A stretch of 63,457 nucleotides of DNA, filler included, from Atractiella rhizophila (taxonomy: Eukaryota), in the NCBI GenBank assembly GCA_021432655.1. It is 4 parts of 4 records of this genome, joined end to end, with 100 filler letters (N's around TTAATTAATTAA, not from the genome) between each part and the next. Parts side by side here need not be neighbours in the genome. Positions count along the whole stretch, not along the records: positions 17,678 to 35,057 come from MU271874.1; 3 more parts are not named here. One strand, given 5' to 3'. Position numbers and translations under genes: made by a program. The notes beneath the pieces are model-generated. The model was not told where the DNA came from. It saw nothing but the letters and a program-made list of their open reading frames with translations, and ran no database searches. Shown in pieces: positions 17,578 through 55,125 of this stretch; position 1 is the first letter of the stretch, and each line of letters begins with the position of its first letter.

Positions 17578-17677
17578 NNNNNNNNNNNNNNNNNNNNNNN
17601 NNNNNNNNNNNNNNNNNNNNNTTAATTAATTAANNNNNNNNNNNNNNNNNNNNNNNNNNNNNNNNNNNNNNNNNNNN
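17578..17677. other. Assembly gap with TTAATTAATTAA linker
   Basis: 100-nt N run with a central six-frame stop linker; the same construct occurs at 35058 and 52435. Confidence 0.97.
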
Positions 17678-20600: not shown

Positions 20601-23600
20601 TTAGATTAAACTGAAACATAAGGGCAAAGATTGTTCCTCCACTTGGCAAAGCAGAGCTTACCGGTGTTTTTGCAGCTACCAAATGGAGGCGATCTTCTTT
20701 TCAAGTCCTTGCAAGTCTCCGAGAACGGGACAGCTTGACTGCTACTTCGATCCTTGCTCTTGTCGGCGTCACCCAGCGATTGTCTCAAAAGCAGCTTGGA
20801 ACTCCCTCACTTGAAAGATGCTCAACCGTCTACGGCCCATTTTATGAATTTGCTGATCTGCGATGTACCGTGTCACTCCGCAATACCCTTGTTACCTCTC
20901 TCTTCACTGGTGGGATCGAGACAGCCATGATCGTTCCATTTCTCGCCACCATATTTACTAACACGATAAACCCTGTGATTATACGGCGATCTGCTTTGCG
21001 AGACTCCCTTCGGTTTATCGACCTCCACGCTAAATCTTCACTCGTGGACAATTTTCAGCATCTCGTGCCCGCCTTTCTTGCTACAACAGCGGATGCCGAC
21101 AGAGAGTTGCGAGCTCTCACGATGGACGCATTTGCCCTGTTCGCTCGTCATAGTACACCGTCCGGAAAGCTGATAGGCTACAAATCACTGCATATACGGA
21201 CAGGTATGAACTAGTTTGAAAGTGACAAGCGTACTCACGGGTGCTGCAGATGGGGATTCATATTTGGATCCTCCAGTGCTCCAATCCTACATAGATCTTG
21301 TTCTCAGGGAGCGGGAGCAAATCATTCTGGACGAGAAGGCGACTATTGGTTATCACAGAGTACCCTTGACAAGTAAAAAAGCGAAGGACGTCATTAGGTC
21401 CATTTGTCCCTACCCCTGGCTCAGGCATGATCAGTTGTTGACTGGTTGACTTATTGCAGAAAGATAGCCGATTTCACGATCAGACACATCGCTTGTTGGC
21501 CAGACCTACGCTATCGTGCGGTATTGCTCGACATTATCGGCATTCATTTGAATCCACCAGTCGACTCGGTGGTGAAGCTCTTGGAGGCCGTCGTCCAAAA
21601 GTCCGGTTCACTACCTACGTCCGACGCTTCAACCTTGCATCGTTATTTGTCGTCGCTTTTCTCATGTTATGAGACTGTGGATTTAAATTCGGACAGCCCG
21701 ATGTCCCAAAGATGGATGAAGCTCCTGTTCGACGGCTTGCGGCAGCAGCACGGTTCAACCCCGGACGGTAAGTCCCTCAACCTCAGCACTATGTATCTCA
21801 AACTGAGACCACGAGAAGCGACCGGACAGATAATTGCTCATTACACCGTAAGGACAACCAAGCGCATTTTTCGCCGATTGGACCACCGTTCTAAAATGGC
21901 CCTTTATGCCCTGTTTGCCGTACCTCCACTGTTTCCCCAGCGTTTCCGAGATAACGTGGAGTTACAGGATCATCCGTTACTCTCTCTCCATTTGCCCACC
22001 CTTGACGATCCTTGCGTGGTGGCTGATATTCTCGCTGTCAAAATGAAAGCCTTGAATCCGTCGCAGGGCCAAAAACAGTTCAAACGTGTGAAGGTTGACC
22101 TTCGCCACGGTCCAGAGAACATCATCGCATCCATCTGTAGAATTCTCGAACATGTCGATTTTCGTGTGATGGAACCGACTCCTGCGCTGCTGAGCAGCAT
22201 GTTTGATCTACTTGGGGTGCTGCCGAGCCTTCGTGACTCAAGCATAGCGATAGAAACGGGTCATCTGGAACAAATAGCTCTTGTCGCTCTACTGTGCATT
22301 GCAGACAATCTCAATAAAGTATCTTCTATCCTTGCATAATTCCCCAGCTGACAAAGGCTCACAGGATGTATCTCCATCTATGGTGCATGCTGTGCGCTTG
22401 GCTCCAGTAATTGATTTAATGCAAGGTTGGTGCTAATAGTGAAAGCAGAGGCAGAGGAGTTGACGCTCGCTCACAATACAGTTACTTCAGACCCCCATAC
22501 GTCACGACACGCCCTTTCGTTGCTTTCGAAGTTAGGAAGACATGTTCCTGACCAGGTACTCCACAATATTATGCCCATATTCACCTTCATGGGTTCAAGT
22601 ATGCTCCAACGCGACGATGCTGCTTCGTCGAGCGTGGTCGATCGGGTAAGTCACATCATCTCTCTATTTTCTAGTTAACTTTTTCACATACAGACCATGG
22701 ATACGATCCTCCCTGCCTTGGTGCAAACCTGGCGCTCTCAAAATAATGATGGACAACTCCATTCATCTGACGGTGAGGATATTTTTCCAACTGACTACCG
22801 CCGATGCTGGACTATGAGATGAGCAAGCTGATATTCCCTTAGAACTCATCCAATTTCTGCGAATCTTCACAGACGCGTTACCCTATATCCCACGCCACCG
22901 CCGCCCCAAGTGAGGATTCCACGCTACTTGTACTTATTTGTGACACTCGAGCAGGATCCTCATTCGGCTTGTTGACTGTCTTGGGCCTTCTATTTCCTTG
23001 CCGTCAATCGTCAACCTCATCTCTACGAAACAGCATGCAGACAACTATGGACCTCTCATGATTTCAGTCTTCAGCTCTGTCGAACCCGAAAACCAAGTCT
23101 TAGTGCGTGTATAGTTCGATGTCGAGCTGGGACTGAGAGATTTGAAGGCAATAACCAAAATCCTGAGCAATATGCTGGAAGGAGGCTACGATTCCATGGC
23201 AGGGAACATGGTACTATCCTTGTTGGAAACTTTCAGGTCGTCCAAGGTATTCCTCGCCTCCCCACCACTTTCGCTGTCCGCGTTATTCGACTACCTCGTC
23301 GACTCCGCACCGCAGGAAGAATGCCTAAAGGAACTTTACTCTTCCAGCTTGCAACATGTCGCCTTCTTGATGACTCCGGCTGATTTTGCGCGAAAGTTCA
23401 CACTTCGTTTCTCGTCTGCCAAACTGGTAGGGTTCTAACCTGAACGTAAAACCTTTCCATGTTTACTCATCGGCATATAGGAGAAAGACAAATTATCGAT
23501 TCTGCGATCATTCCGATCCAAAGCATCCATGCCCCCAAATCGCCGCATGGATCTACTTCCTGCTTTTGAAATACTCCTCAAGGCTCTACCATACCAAACA

Positions 23601-25246
23601 AGCTTACCACTGACCATGGAAGCTTTAGCAATAGCTTTTACATATAGCGAAGAACCGACGGAATTAGAGAAGTCATTGATGGCGCGATATTTTGAAGCCC
23701 TTATGTCTCCAGACCTTCGATTTAAGACCACGAGTGAGGTCACCAACTTAATGGCGAAAATACTACTGAAATTCGTGTATGTCACTAATGATAAACCTCA
23801 TTGTCTTGGCTGATTCGAGCTAGATAGACCACAACTTGGAGCGCGAATAATCAGACATCTGGCACCTCTGATTGAGTTCTGCAATTCACATTGTGACAGT
23901 GAGTCTGACGTGACCTTCACCTCACCTCACCAACCTCACGACAAAATTAGATGAGGCAACCGCTCATCTCCTTGAAAAGGTCGCTCAAACCATGCCGAGC
24001 TTCCTTCCACCGTACTTGGGACAAATACTCCACGCACGTATCCAACGCAGGGATGATCACAATGCTAAATTGCTCGGCCATCTCTGCCGGGCTGTTTCTC
24101 TCCCAGATTTGATTCACTGTTTGGAGAGACTGTGGGACGACAGCAGTGTGGTACGTCTCCTCAGTGCTTATAACCATTCCGTCTTTTAATCGAACTCAGG
24201 AGTCAAAACGCCTGGTTATTTCCCTTCTACGAAAGAAGATCAAGGCTGCCCATCCTCGAGAAGTTGTTATGGAACATCAACTTATATTGTCTTTCCTTCT
24301 TGCCGCGGTTGCACATCCATGCAGCCCCTCAGTGCAATCTGAGGTGGGTTGCATTGTGTGTACATGCCAAAGTACTGATGAGGCTACCAGTCTGTTGCTG
24401 CTCTCGTGGGAATGTCGCTCAAACTGTCTGATAATTCTTTTCGTCCAACGTTCTTGAGCATATTAGATTGGCAGCGAGAATCTGATGGTAGGTGCAGAAT
24501 TATGCTTTCAGCTTTAGACTAGACTAGAAGGGGATAGTATCTCATCGAAAGATCTTTGTGCTGCGACTTTTTGATGGATTATTGCTCGGATTGCAGGTAT
24601 TGTTCATCCCGCTTTCACGTCGTGTTGCGGTAACATTGTGCCAGGGTCTCGTCCTAAGATATCTCACATTTCTACTGCCATCTATTCTTGAGGACCTACA
24701 TCGGCCCTTTGCCTTGTCGGTGCTTGTAAAATCGTTCACATATGACGAGGACGGGCACTTTTGGACGCCTGTACGGCTAGAAGAAATAGCTGACGCCATC
24801 GCGGATGCGGTCAAAGCTCAGCGTGGGGCATCTGAATCGTCGGAATTGTTTGAAGTGCTAGGCTGCGTCGCAGAGAGAATCACGGAACACACTGCAAAGG
24901 TTACCTTCCTGCTGGTGTTAGTCAAGTCATTACTGATGCTGGAGAATAGAAATTAAACAATAATCTATTGAGGCTAATGCGTTCGGACTCAATCAAAACC
25001 AGGTTATTTGCAATCGAGGCTGTTACTTCGATGTGGCGCCGAGGGGGCAGCCGCCTACTAACGTTATGTGTGTGCTCCAAGTGTATCTCGCTTCACATAC
25101 TGATGACGATGGCAGTGCCTATTGTCATTCCTTTTCTCGCAGATGCTCTACAAGACGATGAGCCGGCTGTCGTAACAGCCACAGAGACCTTGGTCAAACA
25201 GCTGGAGGAGCAAACAGGAGAGACTAGATCACAATGGCTGCAGTGA
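17678..25246 (+). CDS. UTP10: U3 snoRNA-associated HEAT-repeat protein Utp10 (5' end in gap), interrupted by a 1514-bp insertion at 19179-20692
   Basis: VLEWMVR, PDQVLHNIMPIFTFMGSSMLQRDD, FLRIFTDALPYIPRHRR, KLSDNSFRP.F, and C-terminal IPFLA...DDE..V...LE...GE. Confidence 0.88.
19179..20692. mobile_element. 1514-bp non-autonomous insertion, copy 1 (ATCAATTG...GGAGGCGA), no TSD or TIR
   Basis: Near-identical to 25837-27350 (3 substitutions seen by eye); removing it rejoins the UTP10 frame ...PVIPS|SSFQVLASL... Confidence 0.9.
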
Positions 25247-25523
25247 CGTAGATATATCATATCACATTGTAAGAGTTTCTTGTGCAATGCAACCTCTCTA
25301 TGCAAAACATTGGGAAGCAAAGAGAAGCGTATTTAAAATGCGCCATCTTCGGAAACAAGAAAACATTGTGGACAAAAGAACAAGTGCACTGGGTTAGAGT
25401 GGCAGGAGAATCGGAACCGAATTGCCGAAATAGCAATCAGTACTGCTGTTGTCAGCGCGGTGGAGGTCCAAGCAAGAGCAAGAACAATAGTCGGGAGATC
25501 GACTGTGAAGGGATAGTCGAACG

Positions 25524-25818
25524 ATGAGTTTGTACCTCTTTCCTCCTCTGTTAGCAACGGTAACACCTTCCCTAAAGTGGGCCGCACCAGCGTCGCCCTC
25601 TGAATCATCACTTCAGTGGCGAACTCCCTTATCCTGCCACCCACTCGTCACTTTCAGGCCGTTCATCACCCTTCTCAGCATTCCGTACCGCCGAACAGAT
25701 TGAAGAACAGAATGAGGAGGCTTTGGCCGGATTGGGAGGGAAGGTGAGGATGTTGAAAGAAATTACGCTAGGTATTGGGAAGGAGGCCAGGGAGAGCAAC
25801 GCACTGATTGACTCCATG
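25524..25818 (+). CDS. BET1: Qc-SNARE Bet1-like protein, 5' part only (TM exon not found)
   Basis: EQIEEQNEEALAGLGGKVRMLKEITLGIGKEARESNALIDSM followed by a GTTGGT donor, then transposon DNA. Confidence 0.75.
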
Positions 25819-25836
25819 GTTGGTCTGTCCAGTGTT

Positions 25837-27350
25837 ATCAATTGTTTCTACGTTGACAATGACGAGTAGAATGACAGCTTTGAGAATGCCACGTCGCTCT
25901 TGGGAGGAACATTCCACCGTATGAAAGTCATGGCTGCGCGGCAAGGCAGTCATTTTTGTTATTGTAGGTGTTGTCTTCATGATTGTGAATCGGAGGTTAA
26001 TTCTCGCTACCAGGGTTCGCATTTTTACTCAGCGTGACATTATTCTTCGTCATTGTTTGGTGGTGGAGACGATAAGGCAATAGGGAATGGTGCGCGTACG
26101 CGTATGTAGAGTGGGTCATTATGATTGCTCATTAATGCATTGGGAATGCACCATCCTGCATCCAGAAACTGTACCTAGCAGCCTGTTTGACCACATCGAC
26201 TGCGATTTGTTTATTGTGCCTAGCCCAAGTACCCCAGTGCATAGACACAGGGTCTCAGCCGATGTTGATATCTGATTTTACCCCACCGTTCGCCTCTTGA
26301 GGGAGCAGTATGTGGTAGTAGTACCAATCCTGCACTTGCAACGCTGAAAATGCGAAGATTCCGAGCCCCATCGAAACCCATATTCTTGTCCTAGGAGGCA
26401 AAGCTGTGCACTAACACATTTAAGGCGTTGCATGCGGTGGGAGGCAGACCTTACAAGCCCAAGATTGTAGGAGAGTTTTCCCGCTTTTAGATGTAAGAGA
26501 TGGGGTGGGTGAGGAAACTACCGGGGAGATTTGGGAAAGTTGTTTCGGCTGTGGTAGAATCCGCTTAGGCGGCCGTATGGCGGGGGACATCGTGAAGTCT
26601 GCAAGGAGAAGTCTGATAGGAGAAGACGAGGGGATCACTTTGCTTTAGTGTCCCAATCTGGAAATTCCCGACACAACCAATCTGACCCGCTATCCTATGG
26701 GGCAGGTCCCGCACGGAACATTAAAATAAGGTTTCACGTCAAGAACAGGCTTGCAACTTTTTGGGTCCACTTTGAAGGCAGATATTGGAAGTTGGAATAG
26801 ATAAAAAGGAAGTGTAAACAAATCCCTCCCTATTGAGCCATCTTCAAGCTGTTTACAAACAAATCCCCTTTCCTCTCCGCTCACCTCTTCTTTCCTTCCA
26901 TTCCCTCCTTGAGAAGGCCACAATAAATTTCCAGGGCATGGCACCACCTGTTTTGTAAAAGAGTTCCAAACTCGTCCCATTACAAAGCTTCTCAATCCAA
27001 CATAGAACTTTCTCTGCTGTTCTCATATCTCCAACTTTGAAGGTGGTGCAATATATTATACCCTTCTTTTCCACTCAACTTGAGACATTTACATCCCCCA
27101 AAATCAACTCTTTACAGTATGATGTGGAAGGAAGAGCAAGTCGTTGTAGCAGCATTGGTGGGCAGAACAGGAAGCGACTTCACAGAGCTTACTGGACTGC
27201 AGAAGTTTGGTGGTGCAGTGAGAGAGGATTACCAGTGATGTGCATGGTGGATAGAGGATTAGATTAAACTGAAACATAAGGGCAAAGATTGTTCCTCCAC
27301 TTGGCAAAGCAGAGCTTACCGGTGTTTTTGCAGCTACCAAATGGAGGCGA
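25837..27350. mobile_element. 1514-bp non-autonomous insertion, copy 2
   Basis: Direct repeat of 19179-20692 at offset 6658, with the same termini and different flanks. Confidence 0.9.
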
Positions 27351-27593
27351 TACAACATTTGATGTTACCATATTGAATGTTATCTCTATAGATATTCATA
27401 TTCACGAGGAATGTCTCTTCAATACCTACACATTCTTATATCTACAAGTGGGTTGGGGGCGCCAGGGACTAAGGCCACCAATCCATTCGTAAGAGGATGG
27501 CCCCTATAGTAGCTCATATAGGGGTTCAAATCTAGGGCAAAACATATTATTTGCCTTTTCCACAAAATAAAGATTTCTTCACATAATCCAACA
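27351..27593. repeat. Probable solo-LTR-like segment (TGTT at 25833, split by the 1514-bp element, ...TAATCCAACA)
   Basis: TG...CA ends; its right end TAATCCAACA is shared with LTR-B at 30334; it interrupts the copia RNaseH at FHAFC; no TSD. Confidence 0.45.
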
Positions 27594-29240
27594 CGCAGAA
27601 GGCGTGAAAAGGTTGCTTGAGGTCAAAACCAGCTGCAGAATACTCAATTCCTAAGTTCTGAGTTCCTTTGAGGTATCGTAGAAGATGCTTGGCCGCTTCC
27701 CAGTGCTTCTTTCCTAAGTTAGAGAGGTACTTTTCCAAGGACAGAGACTGCATGAGCGATATCTGGACGAGTGGAGATGGCCAAGTACATCATGGAGCCA
27801 ACAACGTTGCTGTAAGGGATATTGCAAATTTTCTTCCTGTTCTTCCTTTGTCTGGGGGCAGTCCTGCTTGCTGAGACCGTGTCCAACATTGAGAGGAGTA
27901 AGGACAGGGTTGCAGTCGTCCATCTGTTGGCGTTCTAGGAGGTCCTTAACATACTGTTCTTGATCCAACCACATCATTCTTCGCTTTCTATCCCTCCTAA
28001 TACGAACCCCAAGTAGGAATTCCGTTGGTCCAAGGTCTCTAAGCTTGAATCGCTTCCCTAACTCCCTCTTGAAGTCCTCTACAGCACCCTTTGATGTGCT
28101 AGCGATCGTAATATCATCCACAAAGACTGGGACAAGTACTTTGATGTCCCCCTTTTGCTGGATTTAGCCAATTGCACTAAAATGACCAGTCATTCCCAAC
28201 AGTGCAGATTAACCCCTTTATACCCAAGGTTCAACACCCTTCCCTAATCTGTACTGTCTTCAACCACTTTCTCTGCCACAACCATTTCCTTCCATCATTT
28301 ATAGTGGGGAAGAGCACCCACTCAACAGTTTTTATAGTCGTTTTCCCCACTCTCACAATATGGCTAAAGTGCTCAGACAGGGGTTCGAACCCGGGTATGC
28401 AGGGTCAGCTCTCGCTACCATGCTGGATTTAGCCAATTGCACTAAAATGACCAGTCATTCCCAACAGTGCAGATTAACCCTTTATACGCAAGGTTCAACA
28501 CCTTTGAGTAAATCCACAGACTAGAGTCGCTCTTGATCTTCTTAAATCCCATATCGACAAGTTCCTTATCCAGTTTCTTCTGCCATTGACGCCCTCCTTG
28601 CCTTGTGCCATAGATGGCCTTGATTAGCTTGAGAACGTACTCTGGAGGACCCTGTGGATGTCCTTCTGGTTGTTGTGCATAGACCTCTCCATCCATATCG
28701 CCGTTAAGGAATGCCGTAGAGATGTCCACTGACTCCAACTCCATGTCCAAGACCACAAGCGAGCAAAAAGAATTGTCCTAAGTGTCGCCCATTTGACCGT
28801 CGATGCGAAAGTATCAAAGTAGTCGAATCCAGGGCGTTGGGAGAACCCCTTGATGACGAATCTGGCCTTGAAGCGCTCAATAGAACCATCCGACTTCTTC
28901 TTCACCGCAAACACCCATTGAGAACCAACGATTTTTGCTCCTTTAGGCGGTTTGACCAGAATCCAACTCTTGTTGTCCAAGTGAGATTGAATCTCCTTCA
29001 CTGTCGCTTCATGCCATTCCTTCGCATTAGGGCTTGCCATGGCTCTTGAATACGACTGAGGGACCTCTACTCCTGTTGCTGCACTCATGGCATGTTCTGT
29101 GACAAGCATATAGCCGTATTCCATCGCCTCTGGCTCGGTGAGTATGTCACATTCCTTTACCAACGTCCCAAGCTCGTCTGTTGACCCTTCGTCGTTGTTC
29201 TGAGGCACTTCTGGGGTCCTAAATCTGTCGACAGGTCGTC
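27594..29240 (-). mobile_element. Ty1/copia RT/RNaseH fragment, frameshifted, interrupted by a TRIM
   Basis: WVFAVKKKSDGSIERFKARFV.KGFSQRPG.DY.DTFA, VDISTAFLNG, KAIYGTRQGGRQW, VFVDDITI, HWEAAKHLLRYLKGT. Confidence 0.93.
28156..28500 (-). mobile_element. Intact 345-bp TRIM (LTRs 28156-28236 and 28421-28500)
   Basis: TG..CA direct repeats of ~80 bp, 5-bp TSD CCTTT, PBS TGGTAGCGAGAGC, PPT AGGGAAGGG. Confidence 0.92.
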
Positions 29241-29375
29241 TGTAAGGATCTAAGGCTAGGAGTAGTTAGTGGTTAATAATGAGCAACAACACTCCTAGGC
29301 AGAACTAAACTACATAGTGATGACTCATAAGAGTCATAAGAGGCAGATGACCAAAACAACACACTACAACTAACA
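29241..29375 (-). mobile_element. Solo LTR, family A (short variant)
   Basis: TGTAAGG...CTAACA flanked by 5-bp TSD TCGTC; homologous to 29752-29884 and 33543-33742. Confidence 0.9.
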
Positions 29376-29751
29376 TCGTCCTCTACTCGTAGAATAATTC
29401 TTGAAGGCCTGGTGACAGGGGAGGTGTTGAAGCCGCTGGAGGAGGTCGATCTGGTGTTGTTGGGCGGATCTGGAGTGGATCTGGAGACTCTGAGAATGTA
29501 GGCATATGAACTCCTGTCCAGGGATCTCTCTGCATGGTGTGGGGGTGTCCTAGTGCGTTCAGGCACAAAGCTGTGGCGGATCTGGAGATGGCTCTCTTTT
29601 CTTCTTCTTCGACCTGTAGGGGCTGAAACCGATTTGGAGAATGTATTCCAAGTGGTCTGGGTTGGTCCTGAGGTGTGGGTGGTGCTCCTGGCTGTTGAAT
29701 CCATCCTTCTTCTTCTTCTTCATCGTCATCTAGCGAAATCCTGGCTGGAGG

Positions 29752-30334
29752 TATAAGGATCTAAGGCTAGGAGTAGTTGGTGGTCAATAATGAGCACCAA
29801 CACTCCTAGGCAAAACTAAACTACATAGTGATGGCTCGTATGAGTCATAAGAGACAGATGACCAACACAACACTACAACTAACACTTCTCTCCCAGGGGG
29901 TTGATCAAAATTTTACTTTCTTCAGACATGGTGATAAAATTCGAGTTTGGATCGTCCGATCTTCGTAGAAATGGGTGGATATAGGCGTAAGGGGGTCTCG
30001 TTTATGATCCCAAAGTTTCAAACTGATTGGACAACGGATGGCTGAGTGATCAAAATTTTCAACCAAGTGGGTGGCAAAACGGATCTGTCAATCTCTAGCT
30101 ACCGCTCTCGCTACCATGAGAGAATCTGATGCTGGATGGAGCTAGGGAACAGTGATTGGTGGTCAAAGATGATGACATTGATAGGGAAACACATACCTAG
30201 GGGACAGTAATTGGTGGTCAAAGATGATGACCGCCTAAACTGCCCCCTAGGGGGCTAAAACTCCGAAGTGAAGCAAACAAAACAGAGGTGACCACACAAA
30301 CATAACACCATGAAATATAACACCTAATCCAACA
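29752..30334 (-). mobile_element. Miniature LTR element with unlike LTRs: LTR-B (30117-30334), PBS, ~220-bp core, PPT, LTR-A (29752-29884)
   Basis: PBS TGGTAGCGAGAGC directly after LTR-B; PPT GGGAGAGAAG directly before LTR-A; no TSD. Confidence 0.8.
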
Positions 30335-31405
30335 TATTCCAAGCGGTCTGGGTTGTTCCTAAGGTGTAGGAGGTGCTCCTGGCTGTTGAATCCATCCATC
30401 TTCATCTTCATCGTCATTATCTAGCGAAATCCTGGCTGGAGGAGCGGCTGGAGCATTATTCTGTCGATCTCCCACCTGATCCTGGCACTCCTTCCACTCA
30501 TCAAGTGGTCCCTGTGGCTCTTCCAACATAATCTTCTCCTTCCTCACCTTGCAGAGCATCTCTCTCTCATCAAATCTGGCAACATCTCGAGTGTAGACCT
30601 TCTTTCCAACAGGATCCCAGAACAAGTCATAAGAGACAGATGACCAACACAACACTACAACTAACACTTCTCTCCCAGGGGGTTGATCAAAATTTTACTT
30701 TCTTCAGACATGGTGATAAAATTCGAGTTTGGATCGTCCGATCTTCGTAGAAATGGGTGGATATAGGCGTAAGGGGGTCTCGTTTATGATCCCAAAGTTT
30801 CAAACTGATTGGACAACGGATGGCTGAGTGATCAAAATTTTCAACCAAGTGGGTGGCAAAACGGATCTGTCAATCTCTAGCTACCGCTCTCGCTACCATG
30901 AGAGAATCTGATGCTGGATGGAGCTAGGGAACAGTGATTGGTGGTCAAAGATGATGACATTGATAGGGAAACACATACCTAGGGGACAGTAATTGGTGGT
31001 CAAAGATGATGACCGCCTAAACTGCCCCCTAGGGGGCTAAAACTCCGAAGTGAAGCAAACAAAACAGAGGTGACCACACAAACATAACACCATGAAATAT
31101 AACACCTAATCCAACATATTCCAAGCGGTCTGGGTTGTTCCTAAGGTGTAGGAGGTGCTCCTGGCTGTTGAATCCATCCATCTTCATCTTCATCGTCATT
31201 ATCTAGCGAAATCCTGGCTGGAGGAGCGGCTGGAGCATTATTCTGTCGATCTCCCACCTGATCCTGGCACTCCTTCCACTCATCAAGTGGTCCCTGTGGC
31301 TCTTCCAACATAATCTTCTCCTTCCTCACCTTGCAGAGCATCTCTCTCTCATCAAATCTGGCAACATCTCGAGTGTAGACCTTCTTTCCAACAGGATCCC
31401 AGAAC
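29843..31405. repeat. Tandem duplication, 782-bp period (29843-30623 / 30625-31405)
   Basis: The two units appear identical by eye; the same ORF tail ends at 30359 and 31141. Confidence 0.9.
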
Positions 31406-32275
31406 TCCCACCCTTTCGCTGCAAGAGAATAGCCTATAAATGCGCATTTTCGTGTATGAGATCCTAAGCTGTGTGGCCTTTCATCCTTCTGAACTTGAAC
31501 GTAGGCAATGCATCCAATGATTCTGAATCTTGAGATGGTTGGAGTAAGTCCAGTGAGTTTCGTGTGGGGAATAGCATGGTTGATCAAAGCTGAAGGAGAT
31601 CTGTTGTGAATGTGGACGACTGCTGAAGCGATAGATGGCCAGAGAAAGAGAGGAAGCCCAGATTCTTCAAACATGGCCACCATGGTCTCCTGAATTGTCC
31701 TATTGGCTCGTTCTGCCCTGCCATTCTGATGAGGAGAGTTCCTGATCGTCTGTTGGCGCTGGATACCACAGGCCTTGAGGTATGGATCAAATTCCTTGGA
31801 GGAATAAGCGCCTTCCTTGTTCTCTCTAAACTTCTTGATCTTCTTCCCAGTGATATTCCTACCCAATTCTTGAAGGTCTGGAAGAGTTCTGGGGCCTTTG
31901 ATTTCTTCTTGAGGAAGGCAATTGTGCAATGATTCGTTACTTCATCAATGGAAGTGACCCAATAACAATATCCTTCTCTGGAAGTGACTGAAGAAAGAGG
32001 TCCATGTAGGTCTGAGGTGATTCTACCTAATATCTCCTTCTCCCTAGCTCTGCTGACTTATTAACGACTCTGTGCTGCTTCCCAGCTAGGCATGGCTCGC
32101 AAATAGGATCTGGATCGTCCTCCAAGTCCAAAATCATCCCATTCACAAATTTCTTCCTCTTCAGACGCTTGATGTCCTCATAATTCAGGTGTTCAGGTCT
32201 CCTATGCCATAGAGAAGCATCTATAGGCAGTGTAGAAGCATTCCCAGCAAATTCTGGAGCAGGAAGGGTGTTCCC
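31117..32275 (-). mobile_element. Ty1/copia GAG-pre-integrase/integrase fragment, frameshifted
   Basis: LWHRR..HLN, CEPCLAGKQHR, SPHQNGRAERANRTI, FIGYS motifs. Confidence 0.92.
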
Positions 32276-32802
32276 TGTTGGATTAACTGCTAAATTTCAT
32301 GGTGTTGTCTTTGTGTGGTCAGCCACCTTTGCTGCGTTCACTCACTTCGTAGTTTGTCTCCCTAGGGGGCAGTATTGGTGGTGATCATCTTTGACCACCA
32401 ACTCCTGTCCCCTAGCTCCATCCAGCGTCTATTCCTCTCATGGTAGTGAGAGCAGTGGCCAGGGATTGACAGATCAGTTGGAATTGCAATTTTCAATTTT
32501 GCCACCCACTTGGTTGAAAATTTTGACCACTCAGCCATCCTTTGTCCAATCGATTCAAGACTTTGGGATCATAATCAAGACCCTCCTAAGGCCCTATCCC
32601 CCCATTTTGACAAAGATCAGACGATCCAAACTCGAATTTTATCGCCATGTCTGAAGAAAGTAAAATTTTGATCAACCCCCTGGGAGAGAAGTGTTAGTTG
32701 TAGTGTTGTGTTGGTCATCTGTCTCTTATGACTCATATCAGCCATCACTATGTAGTTTAGTTTTGCCTAGGAGTGTTGGTGCTCATTATTGACCACCAAC
32801 TA
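32276..32802 (+). mobile_element. Second, diverged LTR-B / PBS / core / PPT / LTR-A mini-element (LTR-A truncated)
   Basis: LTR-B 32276-32440, PBS TGGTAGTGAGAGC 32441, PPT 32682-32691, LTR-A from 32692. Confidence 0.8.
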
Positions 32803-33742
32803 TGTTAGTTGTAGTGTGTTGTTTTGGTCATCTGCCTCTTATGACTCTTATGACTCATATGAGTCATCACTATGTAGTTTAGTTCTGCCTAGGAGTGTTG
32901 GTGCTCATTATTGACCACCAACCACTCCTAGGTATGTCTCTCTATACTTCTCTAATGTGCTTATTATTGACCACCAACCACTCCTAGCCTTAGATCCTTA
33001 CATGGTAGCGAGAGCTGGTGGCTAGGATTACATTTGGTCACACCTATCAGCTTCCCCCTCCTCCAGACCACAATTTTCACCCTCCTACACTCAAATTTCG
33101 CTCAATTTCGATGATCAAAACAGATTTGTGATCCTCAAACATTCCTTTACCACCTTAGAAGGTTTCTGCCTACTCAGGAATCAAGAAAAATCGAAATCTA
33201 CCACCTTACCACCCATCACCTGCCTCAAAACGCACTTTGCCACCCTGGACTCAAACTTTGACGAATTTGGACGTTATAGGGCTTCTGCGCTACAACTTTA
33301 CTAGGAACCATCTTGGTCACAGTAAGCGAAAATTTCGAGATAGCCACTCCATCACCTCCTTCATACCCCCAAAACGCATTTTTCGACTTTTTGAAGTCAG
33401 ATCTGGTCTGATCTGGACAATTTTATCGCCATTGGATTCACAATAGGCTATTCTACTATCCTACAACAGATCACCTTGATCAGAAGAGTCAAAATTTCGA
33501 AATTTGCCACCATCACATCATCATCACCAGCTCTCGCTACCATGTAAGGATCTAAGGCTAGGAGTGGTTGGTGGTCAATAATAAGCACATTAGAGAAGTA
33601 TAGAGAGACATACCTAGGAGTGGTTGGTGGTCAATAATGAGCACCAACACTCCTAGGCAGAACTAAACTACATAGTGATGACTCATACGAGTCATAAGAG
33701 TCATAAGAGGCAGATGACCAAAACAACACACTACAACTAACA
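32803..33742. mobile_element. Element bounded by inverted LTR-A+PBS units (200-bp LTRs at 32803-33002 and 33543-33742)
   Basis: ~218-bp inverted repeat with 1 mismatch seen; each LTR is followed inward by TGGTAGCGAGAGCTGGTG. Confidence 0.85.
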
Positions 33743-35057
33743 GATCTTTGAAGCCAAGTTGGGGGAGAAGAAGACCATCACCATCACCATCTCAGATGTC
33801 CTACATGTCCCCAAGCTCTTCTACAACAACCTTCTATCAGTCTTCAAGCTCACCATCTACAAGGGAATGAGGGTCTCCATCAAGCACAACAAGGTTCTCT
33901 TCTTCCAGGGTCAAAAACTCTGCCTTACTGCCACTGTGGACTACAAGAATGGAAGCATGGCTGGAATACTCAATGGGAACACCCTTCCTGCTCCAGATTT
34001 TGCTGGAAATGCTTCTACACTGCCCATGGATGCTTCTCTATGGCATAGGAGACTTGGACACCTGAATTATGAGGACATCAAGCGTCTGAAGAGGAAGGAA
34101 CTCGTGAATGGGATGATTTTGGACTTGGAGGATGAGTCCAGACCCTATTTGCGAGCCATGCCTAGCTGGGAAGCAGCACAGGGTCTTCAACAAGTCAGCA
34201 ACAACTAGGGAGAAGGTGATATTGGGTAGAATCAGCTCAGACCTACATGGACCTCTTCCAGTCACTTCCAGAGAAGGATATCGATATTGGGTCACCTTCA
34301 TCGACGAAGCAACAAATCATTGCACAATTGCCTTCCTTAAGAAGAAATCAGAGGCCCCAGAACTCTTCAAGATCTTCAAGAGTTGGATAGAGAATATCAC
34401 TGGGAAGAAGATCAAGAAGTTTAGAGAGGACAAGGAAGGCGCGTATTCCTCCAAGAAATTTGATCAATATCTTAAGGCCTGTGGTATCCAGCGTGAACAG
34501 ACTATCAGGAATTCTCCTCATCAGAACGGCAGAGCAGAACGAGCCAATAGGACGATTCAGGAGACTATGGTCGCCGTGTTTGAAGAATCTGGGCTCCTGC
34601 TCTTTCTCTGGCCATCTATCGCTTCAGCAGTCGTCCACATTCGCAACAGATCTCCCTCAGCTTCGATCAACCACGCTATTCCCCACACGAAACTCACTGG
34701 ACTTACTACAACCATCTCAAGATTCAGAATCATTGGATGCACTGCCTACGTTCAAGTTCAGAAGGATGAAAGGCCACACAGCTTAGGATCTCATACTCGA
34801 AAATGTGCATTTATAGGCTATTCCCTTGCAGCGAAAGGGTGGGAGTTCTGGGATCCTGTTGGAAAGAAGGTCTACGTCCGAGATGTTGCCAGATTTGATG
34901 AGAGAGAGATGCTCTGCAAGGTCAGGAAAGAGAAGACTACGTTGGAAGAGCCACAGGGACCACTTGATGGATGGAAGGAGCGTCAGGATCAGGTGGGAGA
35001 TGGACAGAATAATGTTCCAGCCGCTCCTCCAGCCAGGATTTCGCTAGACGACGATGA
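33743..35057 (+). mobile_element. Ty1/copia protease end, GAG-pre-integrase and integrase fragment, running into a gap
   Basis: DVLHVPKL..NLLSV, LWHRRLGHLN, SDLHGPLPVTSREGYRYWVTFIDEAT, SPHQNGRAERANRTI; frameshift near 34135. Confidence 0.93.
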
Positions 35058-35157
35058 NNNNNNNNNNNNNNNNNNNNNNNNNNNNNNNNNNNNNNNNNNN
35101 NTTAATTAATTAANNNNNNNNNNNNNNNNNNNNNNNNNNNNNNNNNNNNNNNNNNNN
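35058..35157. other. Assembly gap with TTAATTAATTAA linker
   Basis: 100-nt N run with linker. Confidence 0.97.
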
Positions 35158-40197: not shown

Positions 40198-41877
40198 ATG
40201 GAATCTATGACGGCGAACACAGAGATTGCGCTGGCTGGACGACGATCAATTCATTGCCCGATGCAAAGCAACCAACAAGCGGATATGTGTATACAAGATG
40301 AGAGACAGCATGCGCTCCCTCTTGAATCCAACGCCTCTTCCCTACCGCCCGTTGATGGTGGATTCCGTGCATGGGCATTCGTCAGTTCTGCATTCATGCT
40401 TCAGCTACTCGTGCGTTCTTGGGGATCCTCATTCGGTTTGTCTGATTAAATCTTGTGAACCTCAAGTCTCAGTAATGGTATAGGCACGGTTCAAGCCTAC
40501 TTAACGACGAGCCCTCTCTTTTCGTCTGCTTCCGCCGCCAGCATTTCATCCATTGGAACGACAGGCGTGTGCCTGCAGTATTGTTGCCTGCCTTTTATCA
40601 TGGCGTGGTACAAACGCAATCCGCGGCGGATCCAGACGACCATGAAGATTGCACTTGTGATTAGCGCTGCAAGTTTCTTTGTTAGCAGCTTCAGCAACTC
40701 GGTTCGACCCTCTGACCTCCATACACCATACGTAACAAACTGAGTGTGATATGAAAGGTGTGGCAATTGATGCTCACGCAAGGACTTCTATGGGGAGTGT
40801 CATCGTCTATCCTGTAAGGCTTGCTCCTTCAGTCAACGGAGATTAATTCCCTGTTTCTGATTGAAGGCAATCTCCTGTCCTCCTCTATCTATCCGAGTGG
40901 TTTTCAACTCGTCGTGGCTTGGCTGGGGGCATCATTTTTGGAGCGTCTGGGGTTGGAGGTGCCATTGTCCCTCCATTTTTGGGATTCCTACTTGGGACGG
41001 TTAAATTTGCATGGACAGTTCGTATCTGGGCAGGAATGTACTTTGTCTTGGGAACGCTCAGCCTATGGCACACGAAACCAAGGATTCCGCCATCTTCTCG
41101 CTCTCCCACAGAAGAGAGGGACAACGAAATAGGCAGAAGTAACAACCATGACTGGAGCCGAAAGGGAGCCCTCAAGGCATTTAAAGAGGGGGCGGAAATC
41201 TGGGGCAATCCGTTGTTTCTTCTCATTGTTCGTACTTCCTTAACAACCCCTGATTATGGATAATTATGAATTGATGGAGTTGGTGAACATCTCAGGCAAT
41301 TACGGTTTCCCTTCAGTCAATCGCAACCTTTCCTGTCTCCTTTCACCTGCCCACCTACGCATCTACACTTGGATACCCCTTTGTCACCTCCACGCTGGTT
41401 CTGAGTGCTTACAACATTGCCGCCACCACATCGTATATCCTCATCGGTTATCTTACCGACAAAATTGATTTCCGCACTCTGCTCATCTTCACCTCTGTTT
41501 TTGCCTCTATCTTCTCTTACATTGTCTGGGGGTTCGCTCAAGATCTTGCTCTAACTTTTGTCTTCGCTTCAGGCTTTGGGGTATTGATAGGAGGAGTTGG
41601 TGCCATCTGGCCCGCAGCAGGGACGCAGATTGTCCGTTCCGTTTCTGATGGAAGAGGCATTGCACACTTCGACAGCAACTCCATCTTCTCTCTTCTTTCA
41701 ACTATCAAGGGTATTGCAGCACTGGCAGGCCCACCTCTCGCTAGCCTATTATATCAACCCACCTCTCAAGAGCATATGTATGGTGCGTACGGGTTTCAAA
41801 ACATCACAATCTTCGTAGGGAGTTTGTTGCTTGGAGCCGGAATTGTGAGTGCAGGAACACGGCTCCTGAAGCATTGA
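40198..41877 (+). CDS. MFS monocarboxylate transporter (Mch-like), multi-exon; start uncertain
   Basis: PPVDGGFRAW, LSEWFSTRRGLAGGIIFGASGVGG, IGYLTDK, GPPLA motifs. Confidence 0.87.
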
Positions 41878-43459: not shown

Positions 43460-44576
43460 AGGAACAACAGCATACTCTCACAGCAATAGATGACAAGGAC
43501 ATAAAGATTGAACTGGCAGAACGAAGATCAGTTCATCACCCGATGCAAAACGACCAGCAAGCCGACATAGAGCGACTTAAGCTCCGTCTTGAATCCAACC
43601 TCACTTCCCTTTTACTAGTCGATGGTGGATTTCGTGCATGGGCATTCATTAGTTTTGCATCCATGCTCCAGCTACTCGTATGCTGGAAAGATAGGTGTGT
43701 GCTTGCAGTATTGTTGCATGCCTTCTACCATAATGGCGTGGTACAAACGCCATCAGCTCCCAATACCCATGGAAGATCAGGCTTGTGATTACAGCTGCAA
43801 GTTTGTTTGTTAGAAACTTCAACAACTCAACCCTCTCATGATGAGAAAACTGAAAGGTGTAGTAGGACTTGTATAGGGCGTGTCATCGTCTGTGCTGTGC
43901 TGTCGCTCCGCCTCTCTTTCAGTCAACCGCAAGTAGTTCCCTGTTCCTGTTGTAAGGCAATCTACGGTTCTCCTTTATCTATCCGAGTGGTTTCGACCCC
44001 GTCGTATCTTAGCTGGCAGCATCATTAGGGGAACATCTGGCGTTGGAGATGCCATTACCTCCATTGTGGTATTCCTACTTCGTATTCGGGCGGGAGTATA
44101 CTTTGTCTTGGGAGCGCTCAGCCTACAGTATACGAGATCAGAGATTCCGCTACCTTCTCGCTCTCCTACAGGGAGAAGCAACGAGAAGTGTAGAGGGTGA
44201 CTGTATTTGGGACAGCAATCTGGAGCAATCCGTTACTTCTGCTCATTGTTCGTACTTCCTATACACCCCAGGTTTATTGAATTGATGAGCACCTCGGGCA
44301 ACCTTTTGGAGTGTCAATGGGGAGTCGGTGCCATCGGGCCTACGCATATTGTTTCGTTCTGTGTCCAATAGAGGAAGTGCTACACACTTGGACAGTTTCT
44401 CTAGTTTTTCTCTTCTTTCAACCATCAAGGGCATCGCGATGTTGTGTTGGCGGGCCCACCTCTTGCTAGTCTATTGTATACCTACCTCGAAAGAGTGGTT
44501 GCATGGCGCGTATGGGTTTCAAAATTATAATCTTCGTTAGAGTCAGGTTTCCAGAACGCAGCTCCTGAAGCGTTGA
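43460..44576 (+). pseudogene. Decayed duplicate of the MFS gene at 40198-41877
   Basis: Colinear DNA similarity (GATGGTGGATT.CGTGCATGGGCATTC; TATCCGAGTGGTTT; TTCTCTTCTTTCAAC.ATCAAGGG) with deletions, frameshifts and stops. Confidence 0.85.
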
Positions 44577-52434: not shown

Positions 52435-52534
52435 NNNNNNNNNNNNNNNNNNNNNNNNNNNNNNNNNNNNNNNNNNNNTTAATTAATTAANNNNNNNNNN
52501 NNNNNNNNNNNNNNNNNNNNNNNNNNNNNNNNNN
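52435..52534. other. Assembly gap with TTAATTAATTAA linker
   Basis: 100-nt N run with linker. Confidence 0.97.
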
Positions 52535-53896: not shown

Positions 53897-55125
53897 CTAC
53901 AACTTCGGCTTGATCTCTGGAGGACCATGGTACCACTCTACTTCTGCCACTCTCTCTCTAATCTTGCCCTCCGCCAGCCACATCCTATAAAACTCCCACA
54001 ATCCACCCTCTCCTGTTCTTCCCCTTCCCTTCTTTCTAAACGAATTCATATGTCCCACCTCTCCCCATCCCATCTTCTCCGGGTTCACATACCGCCCATA
54101 CATCCTCGCAAAAGGGAGATGAGGCATCTGCCCCTTCCTTATAGGCTCAATAGAACCGAGAAAGGTATCGTCTGTGTACACCACCGTCATAGTAGGAACA
54201 GAATAACCAGAAATAGCATCCGGCAATCCAGCCTTCGACCAGATGTAATCTTCCGTCAACATCCCTCCCCACCAATCCTCTGCCACACCAAGCGTCATCT
54301 CCTCCCCGACGGTGAGCTCGGGTCCAGGCAGGTAACCGAGCGCGCGACACCAATCCAATATCCCTCCAACGCGTGCAGTCGCCTCTTCAAGCGTCTCAGG
54401 AGGTAACGAAGTGGTCGGATCGTGTCGAGCGGACATGAAGCGGCAGCTCGGGTTCCAGCAACTGACGAAGAGTGCGCGGGAGAAGCGAGACCAATATATC
54501 GCGGGGAGGATCGTGAATACGTTCCCTTTCGAATACCACATTACGGGAGTGAGTGAACATGAATTGGAAGAGACAATATCGTACCCCCGTTGCTGTGTCC
54601 TAGCCACACCAGTTCCTCACCCCTGAACCGTCCATAGACAAAATCGCTCGCCGCTTTCGCGTCGTTAGCCCACTGATGGNNNNNNNNNNNNNNNNNNNNN
54701 NNNNNNNNNNNNNNNNNNNNNNNNNNNNNNNNNNNNNNNNNNNNNNNNNNNNNNNNNNNNNNNNNNNNNNNNNNNNNNNNNNNNNNNNNNNNNNNNNNNN
54801 NNNNNNNNNNNNNNNNNNNNNNNNNNNNNNNNNNNNNNNNNNNNNNNNNNNNNNNNNNNNNNNNNNNNNNNNNNNNNNNNNNNNNNNNNNNNNNNNNNNN
54901 NNNNNNNNNNNNNNNNNNNNNNNNNNNNNNNNNNNNNNNNNNNNNNNNNNNNNNNNNNNNNNNNNNNNNNNNNNNNNNNNNNNNNNNNNNNNNNNNNNNN
55001 NNNNNNNNNNNNNNNNNNNNNNNNNNNNNNNNNNNNNNNNNNNNNNNNNNNNNNNNNNNNNNNNNNNNNNNNNNNNTACAGGGTGCCGGTTGGGGTGTTG
55101 AAGAAGAAGCGGCCCCAGGCGCCAT
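53897..55125 (-). CDS. Predicted alpha/beta hydrolase spanning a gap; start uncertain
   Basis: QWANDAKAA...WLGHSNGG nucleophile elbow (intron right after), YLPG, TDD and GHMNSF. Confidence 0.7.
54680..55076. other. Assembly gap (N run, no linker)
   Basis: 397 N. Confidence 0.97.

What the first reader, a model, noticed from the sequence alone, without database searches (positions are those of the whole stretch)
32803..33742. Retro-type element with two inverted LTRs, each followed inward by a tRNA primer-binding site
Seen: LTR-A (200 bp) + TGGTAGCGAGAGCTGGTG on the + strand, a ~505-bp non-coding core, then the same unit on the - strand (1 mismatch). No PPT is evident. Established: LTR elements normally have direct LTRs with one PBS and one PPT. 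Inference: either a one-off head-to-head rearrangement, or a unit in which both strands are tRNA-primed, which would be an undescribed replication design. There is no TSD (flanks AACTA/GATCT), so mobility as a unit is not shown here.
Basis: partly seen in the sequence, partly recalled or inferred. Interest (0 to 1): 0.7.

Follow-up and report, generated by a model that had tools for sequence, protein, structure and literature searches.

The report
Rearranged copia retrotransposon ends, head-to-head
The inverted pair of LTRs is real, but it is the broken front end of an ordinary Ty1/copia retrotransposon butted against the inverted front end of a second copy inside a heap of old transposon fragments, not a new way of replicating.

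Summary
Arms 32803-33020 (+) and 33525-33742 (-) are 218 nt with 1 mismatch. Each is a 200-nt TG..CA LTR plus TGGTAGCGAGAGCTGGTG, and 504 nt lie between them.

The "new replication design" reading does not hold.
- A metagenome contig (L001) reads copia pol 3' end, purine tract, the same LTR, the same 18 nt, then the start of the "core".
- Contigs of two other organisms carry LTR-PBS-core colinearly. They run past 33520/33527 into other sequence instead of an inverted PBS.
- The core has 1 ATG on + and 12 on -, so it is a one-sense 5' leader.

So the unit is 5' LTR, PBS and about 505 nt of leader of one young copy. It is joined through a 3-nt overlap (CAC) to the inverted 5' LTR+PBS of a second copy. 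That second copy abuts an older copia copy broken in its protease/integrase region. There is no TSD, and the flanks are unrelated.

The unit lies 1.3 kb from a contig end in a nest of copia fragments. Whether it arose by deletion between two insertions, by capture of an aberrant cDNA, or by an assembly error stays open. Interest is low.

The parts
32803..33002 (+). 5' LTR (long 200-nt form, 'LTR-A', TG..CA) of young copia copy E1
   Evidence: It is 97.7% identical over LTR+PBS to the LTR of metagenome contig L001.
33003..33020 (+). Primer-binding site of E1 (TGGTAGCGAGAGCTGGTG), starting directly after the LTR's CA
   Evidence: The same 18 nt follow the LTR in L001. The first 13 nt recur next to related LTRs at 30104-30116(-), 30886-30898(-) and 28408-28420(-). 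A variant TGGTAGTGAGAGC is at 32442.
33021..33524 (+). The 'core': first ~504-507 nt of the 5' untranslated leader of E1, cut short
   Evidence: It is colinear with L001 (to ~33199, 92%). It is also colinear with tiling contigs of runs X3 and X4, which run on past 33520/33527. It has 1 ATG on + against 12 on - and no Pfam hit.
33525..33527 (.). Inner breakpoint: 3 nt (CAC) shared by the native leader and the inverted PBS
   Evidence: In one search, X4 record 27 and one X3 contig match the window to 33527, then read ATCAGCCCC... The window reads CAGCTCTCGC... instead.
33525..33542 (-). Primer-binding site of second copy E2 (15-18 nt of it, given the 3-nt overlap)
33543..33742 (-). 5' LTR of E2, complete to its first base (U3 start at 33742)
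33743..35057 (+). Older copia copy (end of protease region, GAG-pre-integrase, integrase core, SH3-like), broken at 33742/33743 and running to the contig end
   Evidence: Pfam. Native copia sequence upstream of 33743 is seen as loose ends in X3 and X4 and is absent from the window.
32692..32802 (+). Older short-form LTR-A' cut at its nt 111, forming the left flank of the unit
32276..32691 (+). 5' end of a related family: LTR-B' (32276-32441), PBS variant (32442-), ~235-nt leader ending GGGAGAGAAG
   Evidence: In other copies this leader runs on to AACTATGG... (6 X1 contigs).
31190..32275 (-). Second older copia copy (GAG-pre-integrase, integrase), an inverted repeat of 33975-35057 at 92%
29241..29375 (-). 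Solo LTR of the same LTR-A family (short form) with 5-bp TSD GACGA (29236-29240, 29376-29380) inside copia pol
   Evidence: Removing the LTR and one TSD copy rejoins the pol frame (read from the sequence).
35058..35157 (.). Contig linker N44-TTAATTAATTAA-N44: the contig holding the finding is 17678-35057

Best explanation
The 940-bp unit is a dead, one-off rearrangement product of an ordinary tRNA-primed Ty1/copia retrotransposon family. It is not an element in its own right. Shown: the left 722-725 nt (LTR, PBS, leader) are the normal 5' end of one young copy, E1, on the + strand. The right 215-218 nt are the 5' LTR and PBS of a second young copy, E2, on the - strand. E2's first base abuts an older copia copy broken in its protease/integrase region. 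The two meet at 33524-33527 through 3 shared bases. Inferred as the most likely history: E1 and E2 inserted separately, in convergent orientation, into an old nest of copia fragments. An illegitimate (microhomology) deletion then removed everything between E1's leader position ~505 and the end of E2's PBS. That includes both 3' LTRs and the second copy of each TSD. The unit cannot replicate. It has no gag-pol and no PPT, and its R-U5 and U3 are not arranged so that strand transfers would regenerate it. The only activity to expect is passive. Read-through or convergent transcription from the two LTRs would give a long hairpin or double-stranded RNA. The DNA could form a cruciform or act as a fragile site.
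For: (1) LTR-A is the LTR of a copia family with a normal 3' end. The minus strand of L001 reads pol ORF to its stop, about 180 nt, AGGTGGGAG, LTR (97.7% to the arm), the same 18-nt PBS, then leader. Its first 79 nt match window 27672-27594 at 95%, directly downstream of the window's RVT_2 pieces. (2) Domain order on the minus strand is GAG-pre-integrase, then integrase/SH3, then RVT_2, which is the copia order. (3) In runs of two other organisms, LTR end, PBS and core are colinear: X3 record 17; X4 records 25-27. In addition, 3 contigs (2 in X3, 1 in X4) run on beyond 33520/33527 for 89-119 nt of unlike sequence. No listed X3 or X4 piece crosses into the inverted PBS. (4) The core has 1 ATG on + and 12 on -. 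This is expected of a scanned 5' leader in a single orientation. (5) After the 18 nt, the + side continues like L001 and like the leaders of related copies (GCTAGGATTAC...). The - side does not. (6) There is no TSD, and the flanks are two unrelated truncated repeats: LTR-A' cut at nt 111, and copia cut at 33743. (7) The family integrates normally elsewhere, as shown by the solo LTR with 5-bp TSD. (8) The arms are 99.5% alike and 97.7% like L001. Other LTR-A fragments in the nest are 86-90% alike. So these are young copies in an old nest.
Against: The deletion's right end falls within 3 nt of the end of the 18-nt PBS. A random breakpoint would do that only about once in a thousand. This coincidence favours the strong-stop rival, although the finding was picked precisely because it looks like this. 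No intermediate state (full E1 or E2 at these sites) was seen. The missing parts are not elsewhere in the window. I could not check whether reads of the source organism span the 33524/33525 joint, because the single read-laying run lists only a fraction of the pieces. A 782-bp tandem duplication at 100% identity lies 1.4 kb away, and the contig ends 1.3 kb away. Both leave assembly quality in doubt.
Confidence: 0.5

Rival explanations
1. The unit is the fossil of an aberrant reverse-transcription product. The right arm has exactly the extent of plus-strand strong-stop DNA, from U3's first base to the end of the 18-nt PBS copy. Its 3' end, or the 3' end of a nascent plus strand folding back on itself, paired through 3 nt with the leader and was extended or ligated. 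That gave a snap-back cDNA with a U3 end on both sides. The cDNA was then captured at a chromosome break or integrated non-concertedly.
For: Both ends of the right arm coincide with the ends of plus-strand strong-stop DNA: U3 start at 33742, and PBS nt 15-18 at 33525-33527. Both outer ends of the unit are complete LTR termini, as run-off synthesis on a plus strand would give. The arms are nearly identical. [quoted passage not shown] Passages in PMC11372161 report that Ty1 3' LTR pieces carrying nucleotides present only in cDNA (40 of 56) are captured at yeast double-strand breaks. Unrelated flanks without a TSD fit end-joining capture.
Against: It needs a rare event where a common one (deletion) suffices. 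The PBS coincidence is partly a selection effect. The host tRNA could not be obtained: there is no tRNA in the window and no genome is held. So I could not test whether the 18 nt are a fresh tRNA copy. L001 carries the same 18 nt in a normal context, so they do not mark a cDNA intermediate.
Confidence: 0.23
2. It is an assembly or library artefact. The joint 33524/33525 comes from chimeric reads or a wrong path through a high-copy repeat, and the true genome has two ordinary copies at different places.
For: The LTR and core are very high-copy in the best-holding runs: 1363 contigs laid for X1 and 713 for X2 on 1.8 kb. The contig is only 17.4 kb and ends 1.3 kb to the right, inside a repeat. 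A 100% identical 782-bp tandem duplication lies next to it. Inverted chimeras with a few bases of overlap are a typical amplification artefact (recalled, not from a call).
Against: A 3-nt overlap cannot be produced by an assembler without reads that carry the joint. Random chimeric reads do not pile up at one joint. The surrounding 1.1-kb inverted copia arms are 92% alike, so they are different copies and not one read set folded back.
Confidence: 0.15
3. It is a chromosomal fold-back (replication template switch) inverted duplication. A break or stalled fork in E1's leader primed back on the PBS of the same copy and copied PBS and LTR in reverse.
For: The inner joint has a 3-nt overlap. The arms are nearly identical. 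A perfect tandem duplication nearby might belong to one complex event.
Against: Copying would have to stop exactly at the first base of the LTR. The sequence beyond (GATCT...) is not the reverse complement of the left flank, with 10 of 30 bases matching.
Confidence: 0.05
4. One reading: a replicating unit with inverted LTRs in which both strands are primed by tRNA.
For: Only the architecture itself. In addition, two contigs of the best-holding sample show another inverted LTR-end to LTR-end joint (33002->33545 in X1, 33000->33543 in X2, sides 28-31 nt). That joint is unexplained.
Against: There is no TSD and the flanks are unrelated. No second copy of the architecture was seen in the window, in L001, or in runs X3 and X4. 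The core is the one-sense leader of a normal copia with PPT and direct-LTR logic. An RNA from either LTR would lack the R repeat at its 3' end that strand transfer needs (established retroelement mechanism).
Confidence: 0.02

Closest known systems
Ty1/copia (Pseudoviridae) LTR retrotransposons primed from the 3' end of a tRNA (initiator-Met-like PBS)
   Same: TG..CA LTRs. The PBS starts TGG directly after the LTR. There is a purine tract before the 3' LTR (L001) and a 5-bp TSD (solo LTR). Domain order is integrase before RVT_2-type RT. The PBS resembles the TGGTAGCAGAGC of metazoan GalEa copia elements, which a passage read in PMC5445492 says complements tRNA-Met.
   Different: The 940-bp piece is only a fragment pair of such elements: two 5' ends, with no gag-pol, no PPT and no 3' LTR.
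Nested or rearranged LTR-retrotransposon insertions giving LTRs in antisense (e.g. antisense nested EVD in Arabidopsis; Mu killer-type hairpin loci)
   Same: Two LTRs of one family lie in inverted orientation close together. There is potential for hairpin RNA or convergent transcripts. Passages of PMC11624286 describe an antisense nested EVD and cite TE hairpins arising by rearrangement.
   Different: Here the arms are 504 nt apart and include the PBS. No small-RNA or transcript evidence was obtained.
Ty1 cDNA intermediates captured at double-strand breaks in yeast
   Same: LTR pieces with cDNA-only extra nucleotides are joined without a TSD (PMC11372161 passages). The right arm has the extent of plus-strand strong-stop DNA.
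   Different: This is a natural genomic locus, not an induced break. The cDNA origin is not demonstrated.
DIRS-like retrotransposons (inverted terminal repeats)
   Same: Retroelement with terminal repeats in inverted orientation (recalled knowledge).
   Different: There is no tyrosine recombinase and no ORF at all in the unit. The repeats here are ordinary copia LTRs with a tRNA PBS. No internal complementary region is present.
TRIM / shared-LTR complex elements
   Same: Short LTR-bounded non-coding unit with a PBS. The L001 order pol-PPT-LTR-PBS-leader resembles complex elements that share an LTR (PMC1950507 abstract).
   Different: TRIMs have direct repeats, a PPT and a TSD. None of the three is present in the unit.

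Membership tests
Ty1/copia LTR retrotransposon (parent family of the pieces) | Integrase upstream of an RVT_2-type reverse transcriptase | tested here: met
   Minus strand: gag_pre-integrs 32296-32027, SH3_retrovirus 31941-31141, and RVT_2 in three pieces 29265-27714. Plus strand: gag_pre-integrs, rve (32.0 bits, just under the 32.6 cut-off) and SH3 at 33741-35055.
Ty1/copia LTR retrotransposon (parent family of the pieces) | LTR with TG..CA ends, PBS directly after the 5' LTR, purine tract directly before the 3' LTR | tested here: met
   LTR 32803-33002 reads TGTTAG..CTTACA, followed by TGGTAGCGAGAGC. L001 has AGGTGGGAG immediately before the LTR, downstream of the pol stop. Both LTRs of one complete element were not seen on one molecule.
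Ty1/copia LTR retrotransposon (parent family of the pieces) | 5-bp target site duplication | tested here: met
   The solo LTR 29241-29375 is flanked by GACGA on both sides. This is not met for the 940-bp unit itself (AACTA / GATCT).
Ty1/copia LTR retrotransposon (parent family of the pieces) | PBS complementary to the 3' end of a host tRNA | not testable with these tools
   There is no tRNA gene in the window and no genome is held. The only support is resemblance to the published tRNA-Met-type PBS TGGTAGCAGAGC (PMC5445492 passage).
Autonomous or non-autonomous LTR element as a unit (TRIM-like) | Direct terminal repeats, one PBS, one PPT, TSD | tested here: not met
   The repeats are inverted, there are two PBS, no PPT next to an LTR, and no TSD.
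DIRS-like element | Tyrosine recombinase ORF and internal complementary region | tested here: not met
   The core frames 33026-33304 and 33159-33446 have no Pfam family. The longest ATG ORF in the core is 28 aa. The defining features themselves are recalled, not taken from a call.
Plus-strand strong-stop DNA (as origin of the right arm) | Extent from the first base of U3 to the end of the 18-nt copy of the tRNA 3' end | tested here: inconclusive
   The outer end is exact (33742). The inner end lies between PBS nt 15 and 18 because of the 3-nt overlap. An integrated copy cut there by chance would look the same.

The most novel reading that the evidence does not exclude
The unit is a natural genomic fossil of a snap-back or strong-stop cDNA. 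Plus-strand strong-stop DNA (LTR + 18-nt PBS copy) mis-paired by 3 nt with the leader of a nascent plus strand. The result was a cDNA with a U3 end on each side, which entered the chromosome. The second inverted LTR-end joint seen in contigs of the best-holding sample could mean that this family makes such inverted products repeatedly. That would be an unreported failure mode of copia reverse transcription leaving hairpin loci that could seed silencing. I put it at about 0.02.
Probability: 0.2. Interest if true: 0.45.

Novelty: already known. Interest (0 to 1): 0.12.

Why it matters
As it stands it matters little. Truncated, nested and inverted LTR-retrotransposon fragments are the normal content of repeat-rich fungal-type genomes, and this one needs no new mechanism. 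It has two small points of value. (1) The arms have exactly the extent of plus-strand strong-stop DNA. If long reads confirm the locus and further such pieces exist, it would be a rare natural record of a reverse-transcription intermediate entering a chromosome. (2) A 218-bp near-perfect inverted repeat of a young, high-copy LTR with a 504-nt loop is a plausible source of hairpin RNA against that family. It is also a likely cause of contig breaks or mis-joins in this assembly.

Tried and rejected
- **Whole genome.** None is held, so copies of the core or of the joint could not be counted in the source genome.
- **Earlier findings.** Three look-ups gave nothing.
- **Metagenome scan.** The scan for LTR end + PBS returned 1 locus only, L001.
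- **Reads.** Only Logan contigs were available, and all 4 runs were laid.
  - Contigs cannot phase a 218-nt repeat, and most pieces were not listed (2110 more).
  - I therefore cannot say whether X1/X2 contain the 33524/33525 joint. Absence of a listed piece means nothing.
- **Missing neighbours in the window.** Each of three searches gave 0 matches at up to 3 mismatches: the native leader continuation, the native copia sequence upstream of 33743, and the native continuation of the LTR-B leader.
- **Rfam on 32200-33800.** Only sub-threshold chance hits appeared: mir-4766 at 25.7 bits against 72, and SNORD38.
- **Tandem repeat finder.** It found only the 9-nt repeat and the partial LTR duplication.
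- **Pfam on the L001 pol tail.** No family was found. Calling it the RNase H end of pol rests on its position after RVT_2 and on recalled copia motifs.
- **Autointegration inversion circle (PMC7197481).** Rejected. It would put the inverted 3' LTR with its U5 end directly against internal sequence and its U3 side against the PPT. Here a PBS lies between them, and the U3 side meets copia protease/integrase sequence in + sense.
- **Simple inversion within one element or tandem.** Rejected for the same reason.
- **Earlier estimate of the overlap.** The X3/X4 loose ends correct this to 3 nt.
- **Rejected view of the LTR-B composite.** I first took the composite LTR-B-PBS-leader-GGGAGAGAAG-LTR-A' for a miniature element. 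I rejected that. Its two LTRs differ. Six X1 contigs carry the leader on to AACTATGG..., probably the gag start. There is no TSD.
- **Literature.** Searches turned up no element described as replicating with inverted LTRs each followed by a PBS. I read listings only, so this is not proof of absence. Lauermann & Boeke 1997 was not held.

Full report
**1. The observation**

- Positions 32803-33020 (+) and 33525-33742 (-) form a 218-nt inverted repeat with one mismatch, at 32857 against 33688.
- Each arm is a 200-nt LTR with TG..CA ends, followed inward by TGGTAGCGAGAGCTGGTG.
- 504 nt lie between the arms.
- The flanks are ...CCAACTA and GATCT..., with no target-site duplication, and no purine tract adjoins either LTR.
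- The repeat is far beyond chance. The longest exact inverted match in 31500-35000 is 163 nt, against at most 16 nt in 50 shuffles.
- Folded as one RNA strand, the unit gives the trivial long hairpin: -518.9 kcal/mol, against -212.9 +/- 6.9 in 20 shuffles.

**2.

*The window is several contigs.* They are joined by N44-TTAATTAATTAA-N44 linkers at 17578-17677, 35058-35157 and 52435-52534. That the self-complementary 12-mer is a six-frame stop spacer is my inference. The contig with the finding is 17678-35057, so the unit lies 1.3 kb from a contig end.

*The last 7.5 kb of that contig (27.6-35.06 kb) is a nest of Ty1/copia fragments.*
- On the minus strand, Pfam finds GAG-pre-integrase (32296-32027), the integrase SH3-like domain (31941-31141) and three pieces of RVT_2 (29265-27714).
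- On the plus strand, right of the unit, it finds GAG-pre-integrase, integrase core and SH3-like (33741-35055).
- The two integrase stretches, 31190-32275 (-) and 33975-35057 (+), are an inverted repeat at 92%.

*The nest also holds the following.*
- A solo LTR of the same LTR family in a shorter form: 29241-29375, minus strand, with a clean 5-bp duplication GACGA inside pol.
- Two diverged copies of a composite: "LTR-B, PBS, ~235-nt leader ending GGGAGAGAAG, short LTR-A'". They lie at 30334->29752 (minus) and 32276-32802 (plus). The latter is cut at nt 111 of its LTR-A' by the start of the finding.
- A perfect 782-bp tandem duplication, 29843-30623 = 30625-31405.

**3. What the LTR and the "core" are**

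*Metagenome contig.* One scan for the LTR end plus PBS returned a single 1129-nt contig, L001.
- Its minus strand reads an open pol frame to a stop, about 180 nt, the purine tract AGGTGGGAG, the long-form LTR (97.7% identical to the arm over 218 nt), and the same 18 nt. The first ~180 nt of the core then follow; the whole LTR-to-core stretch is 92% identical to 32803-33199 over 398 nt.
- Its first 79 nt match window 27672-27594 at 95%, just downstream of the window's RVT_2 pieces.
- So LTR-A is the LTR of this very copia family. The family has a polypurine tract in the normal place, and the core is what follows the PBS, i.e. the 5' leader.
- The order pol-PPT-LTR-PBS-leader on one contig may reflect two elements sharing an LTR (a known kind; abstract of PMC1950507), a one-LTR circle, or an assembly path through the LTR. 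I cannot tell which.

*Contigs of four public runs.* I laid them on 32200-34000.
- The two best holders, X1 and X2, come from one sample of "organism A" and are possibly the source of the assembly. They gave 1363 and 713 laid contigs, so the LTR and core are high-copy there.
- In X3 (organism B), one contig is the reverse complement of short-form LTR + PBS + core to 33117. Further contigs tile the core.
- In X4 (organism C), three contigs tile 32980-33527.
- Three contigs (two in X3, one in X4) match the window up to 33520 or 33527, then continue for 89-119 nt with unlike sequence (...ATCAGCCCC...).
- No listed X3 or X4 piece crosses into the inverted PBS.
- In other copies, therefore, the core is colinear behind a direct LTR+PBS and simply runs on.

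*Strand sense.* The core has one ATG on the plus strand and twelve on the minus strand. That suits a scanned 5' leader of a single sense. It has no Pfam match and no Rfam match above threshold.

**4. The joints**

*Inner joint.* The native leader reads ...ATCATCAC|ATCAGCCCC. The window reads ...ATCATCAC|CAGCTCTCGCTACCA. Three bases, CAC at 33525-33527, belong to both, so the break lies between PBS nt 15 and 18 of the minus-strand copy. After the 18 nt, the plus-strand copy continues like L001 and like related leaders. The minus-strand copy does not.

*Outer joints.* Both LTRs are complete to their first base.
- The left one abuts an older LTR-A' cut at its nt 111.
- The right one abuts an older copia copy cut at 33743. 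X3 and X4 show that copy's native upstream sequence as loose ends.
- Neither missing neighbour, nor the leader continuation, is anywhere in the window.

**5. How it most likely arose and what it does**

*Shown.* The unit consists of two 5' ends of ordinary copia copies facing each other. One keeps about 505 nt of leader. The other keeps only LTR+PBS.

*Inferred as most likely (about 0.5).*
- Two young copies inserted in convergent orientation into the old nest. The arms are 99.5% alike and 97.7% like L001, while the other LTR fragments in the nest are 86-90% alike.
- A microhomology deletion then removed everything between them, including the second TSD copies.

*Rival (about 0.23).*
- The right arm has exactly the extent of plus-strand strong-stop DNA. 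[quoted passage not shown]
- Yeast captures Ty1 LTR pieces carrying cDNA-only nucleotides at breaks, 40 of 56 in PMC11372161 (passages).
- A mis-paired strong-stop DNA, or a nascent plus strand folding back, would give precisely LTR-PBS-leader-PBS'-LTR' with two U3 ends.
- I cannot separate this rival from the deletion model without the genome or the host tRNA.

*Other rivals.*
- An assembly or library artefact (about 0.15) cannot be excluded, given the repeat load, the nearby perfect tandem duplication and the contig end. A 3-nt overlap does, however, require reads that carry the joint.
- A chromosomal fold-back (about 0.05) would have had to stop exactly at the LTR's first base.
- The self-replicating, doubly tRNA-primed unit (about 0.02) has no support.

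*Function.* None as an element. Hairpin or convergent transcripts, and DNA fragility, are plausible passive consequences but untested. PMC11624286 (passages) discusses antisense LTR pairs as possible silencing triggers.

**6. Comparison and novelty**

- The parent family passes the tests for Ty1/copia with 3'-end tRNA priming, apart from the tRNA identity itself, which was untestable here.
- The PBS resembles the tRNA-Met-type TGGTAGCAGAGC of GalEa elements (PMC5445492 passage).
- The unit fails the tests for a TRIM: it lacks direct repeats, a PPT and a TSD.
- It also fails the tests for a DIRS-like element: there is no recombinase and no ORF. The DIRS features are recalled, not taken from a call.
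- Truncated and inverted LTR fragments in nests are well known, so I rate this as already known, with low interest.
- The one oddity worth a later look is the strong-stop-like extent of the right arm. It goes together with an unexplained inverted LTR-end to LTR-end joint in two contigs of the best-holding sample (33002->33545 in X1, 33000->33543 in X2, sides 28-31 nt).

**7. Limits**

- No whole genome, no raw or long reads and no host tRNA were available.
- Only one relative locus was obtained as sequence.
- The read laying tables are truncated.
- Literature was read as passages or abstracts only. Searches were seen as listings.

Noticed in passing
window 17578-17677, 35058-35157, 52435-52534; also 54680-55076: N44-TTAATTAATTAA-N44 blocks occur at about 17.4-kb spacing. 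The window looks like separate contigs concatenated with a self-complementary six-frame-stop spacer. There is also a plain 397-N gap at 54680-55076. Features near or across these blocks should not be read as contiguous.
   Followed up: partly
window 29843-30623 and 30625-31405: A perfect (781/781) tandem duplication with period 782. Each unit covers the integrase C-terminus, LTR-B, PBS, leader and the first 42 nt of an LTR-A'. It is either a very recent duplication or an assembly artefact in an otherwise old (86-92%) nest.
   Followed up: partly
window 30334-29752 (minus) and 32276-32802 (plus): A composite 'LTR-B, PBS TGGTAGCGAGAGC, ~235-nt leader ending GGGAGAGAAG, short LTR-A'' is present twice at 80-86% identity, next to different copia positions. 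The two LTRs differ and there is no TSD. In other copies the leader runs on to AACTATGG... (6 X1 contigs). It is probably an old insertion or recombination junction that was later duplicated.
   Followed up: partly
window 29236-29380: A solo LTR (135 nt, minus strand) of the LTR-A family with 5-bp TSD GACGA interrupts the copia pol frame between integrase and RT. It shows that the family integrates normally.
   Followed up: yes
window 32886-32936 and 33609-33659: Each LTR-A contains an internal ~45-nt palindrome (CCTAGGAGTGTTGGTG...CACCAACCACTCCTAGG). The long LTR form also carries a 56-nt internal duplication and an extra 9-nt repeat unit relative to the short form.
   Followed up: no
joints 33002->33545 (X1) and 33000->33543 (X2): Contigs of the best-holding sample join the last bases of an LTR-A to an inverted LTR-A end (U5 end to U5 end, two bases short). 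The sides are only 28-31 nt. This may be a second head-to-head LTR joint elsewhere in that genome, or an alignment effect of the inverted arms.
   Followed up: no
window 19179-20693 and 25837-27351: A 1515-bp direct repeat at 99.8% identity, 6658 bp apart. It may be the LTR pair of a large element or a segmental duplication. The ORF 21431-22339 between the copies has no Pfam match.
   Followed up: no
window 40314-41717 vs 43581-44437; 46046-46936 and 49788-50720 (minus): There are diverged direct repeats (73-83%) about 3.1 kb apart, and two ORFs with DUF3712 matches. These suggest tandem paralogous genes in the next contig.
   Followed up: no
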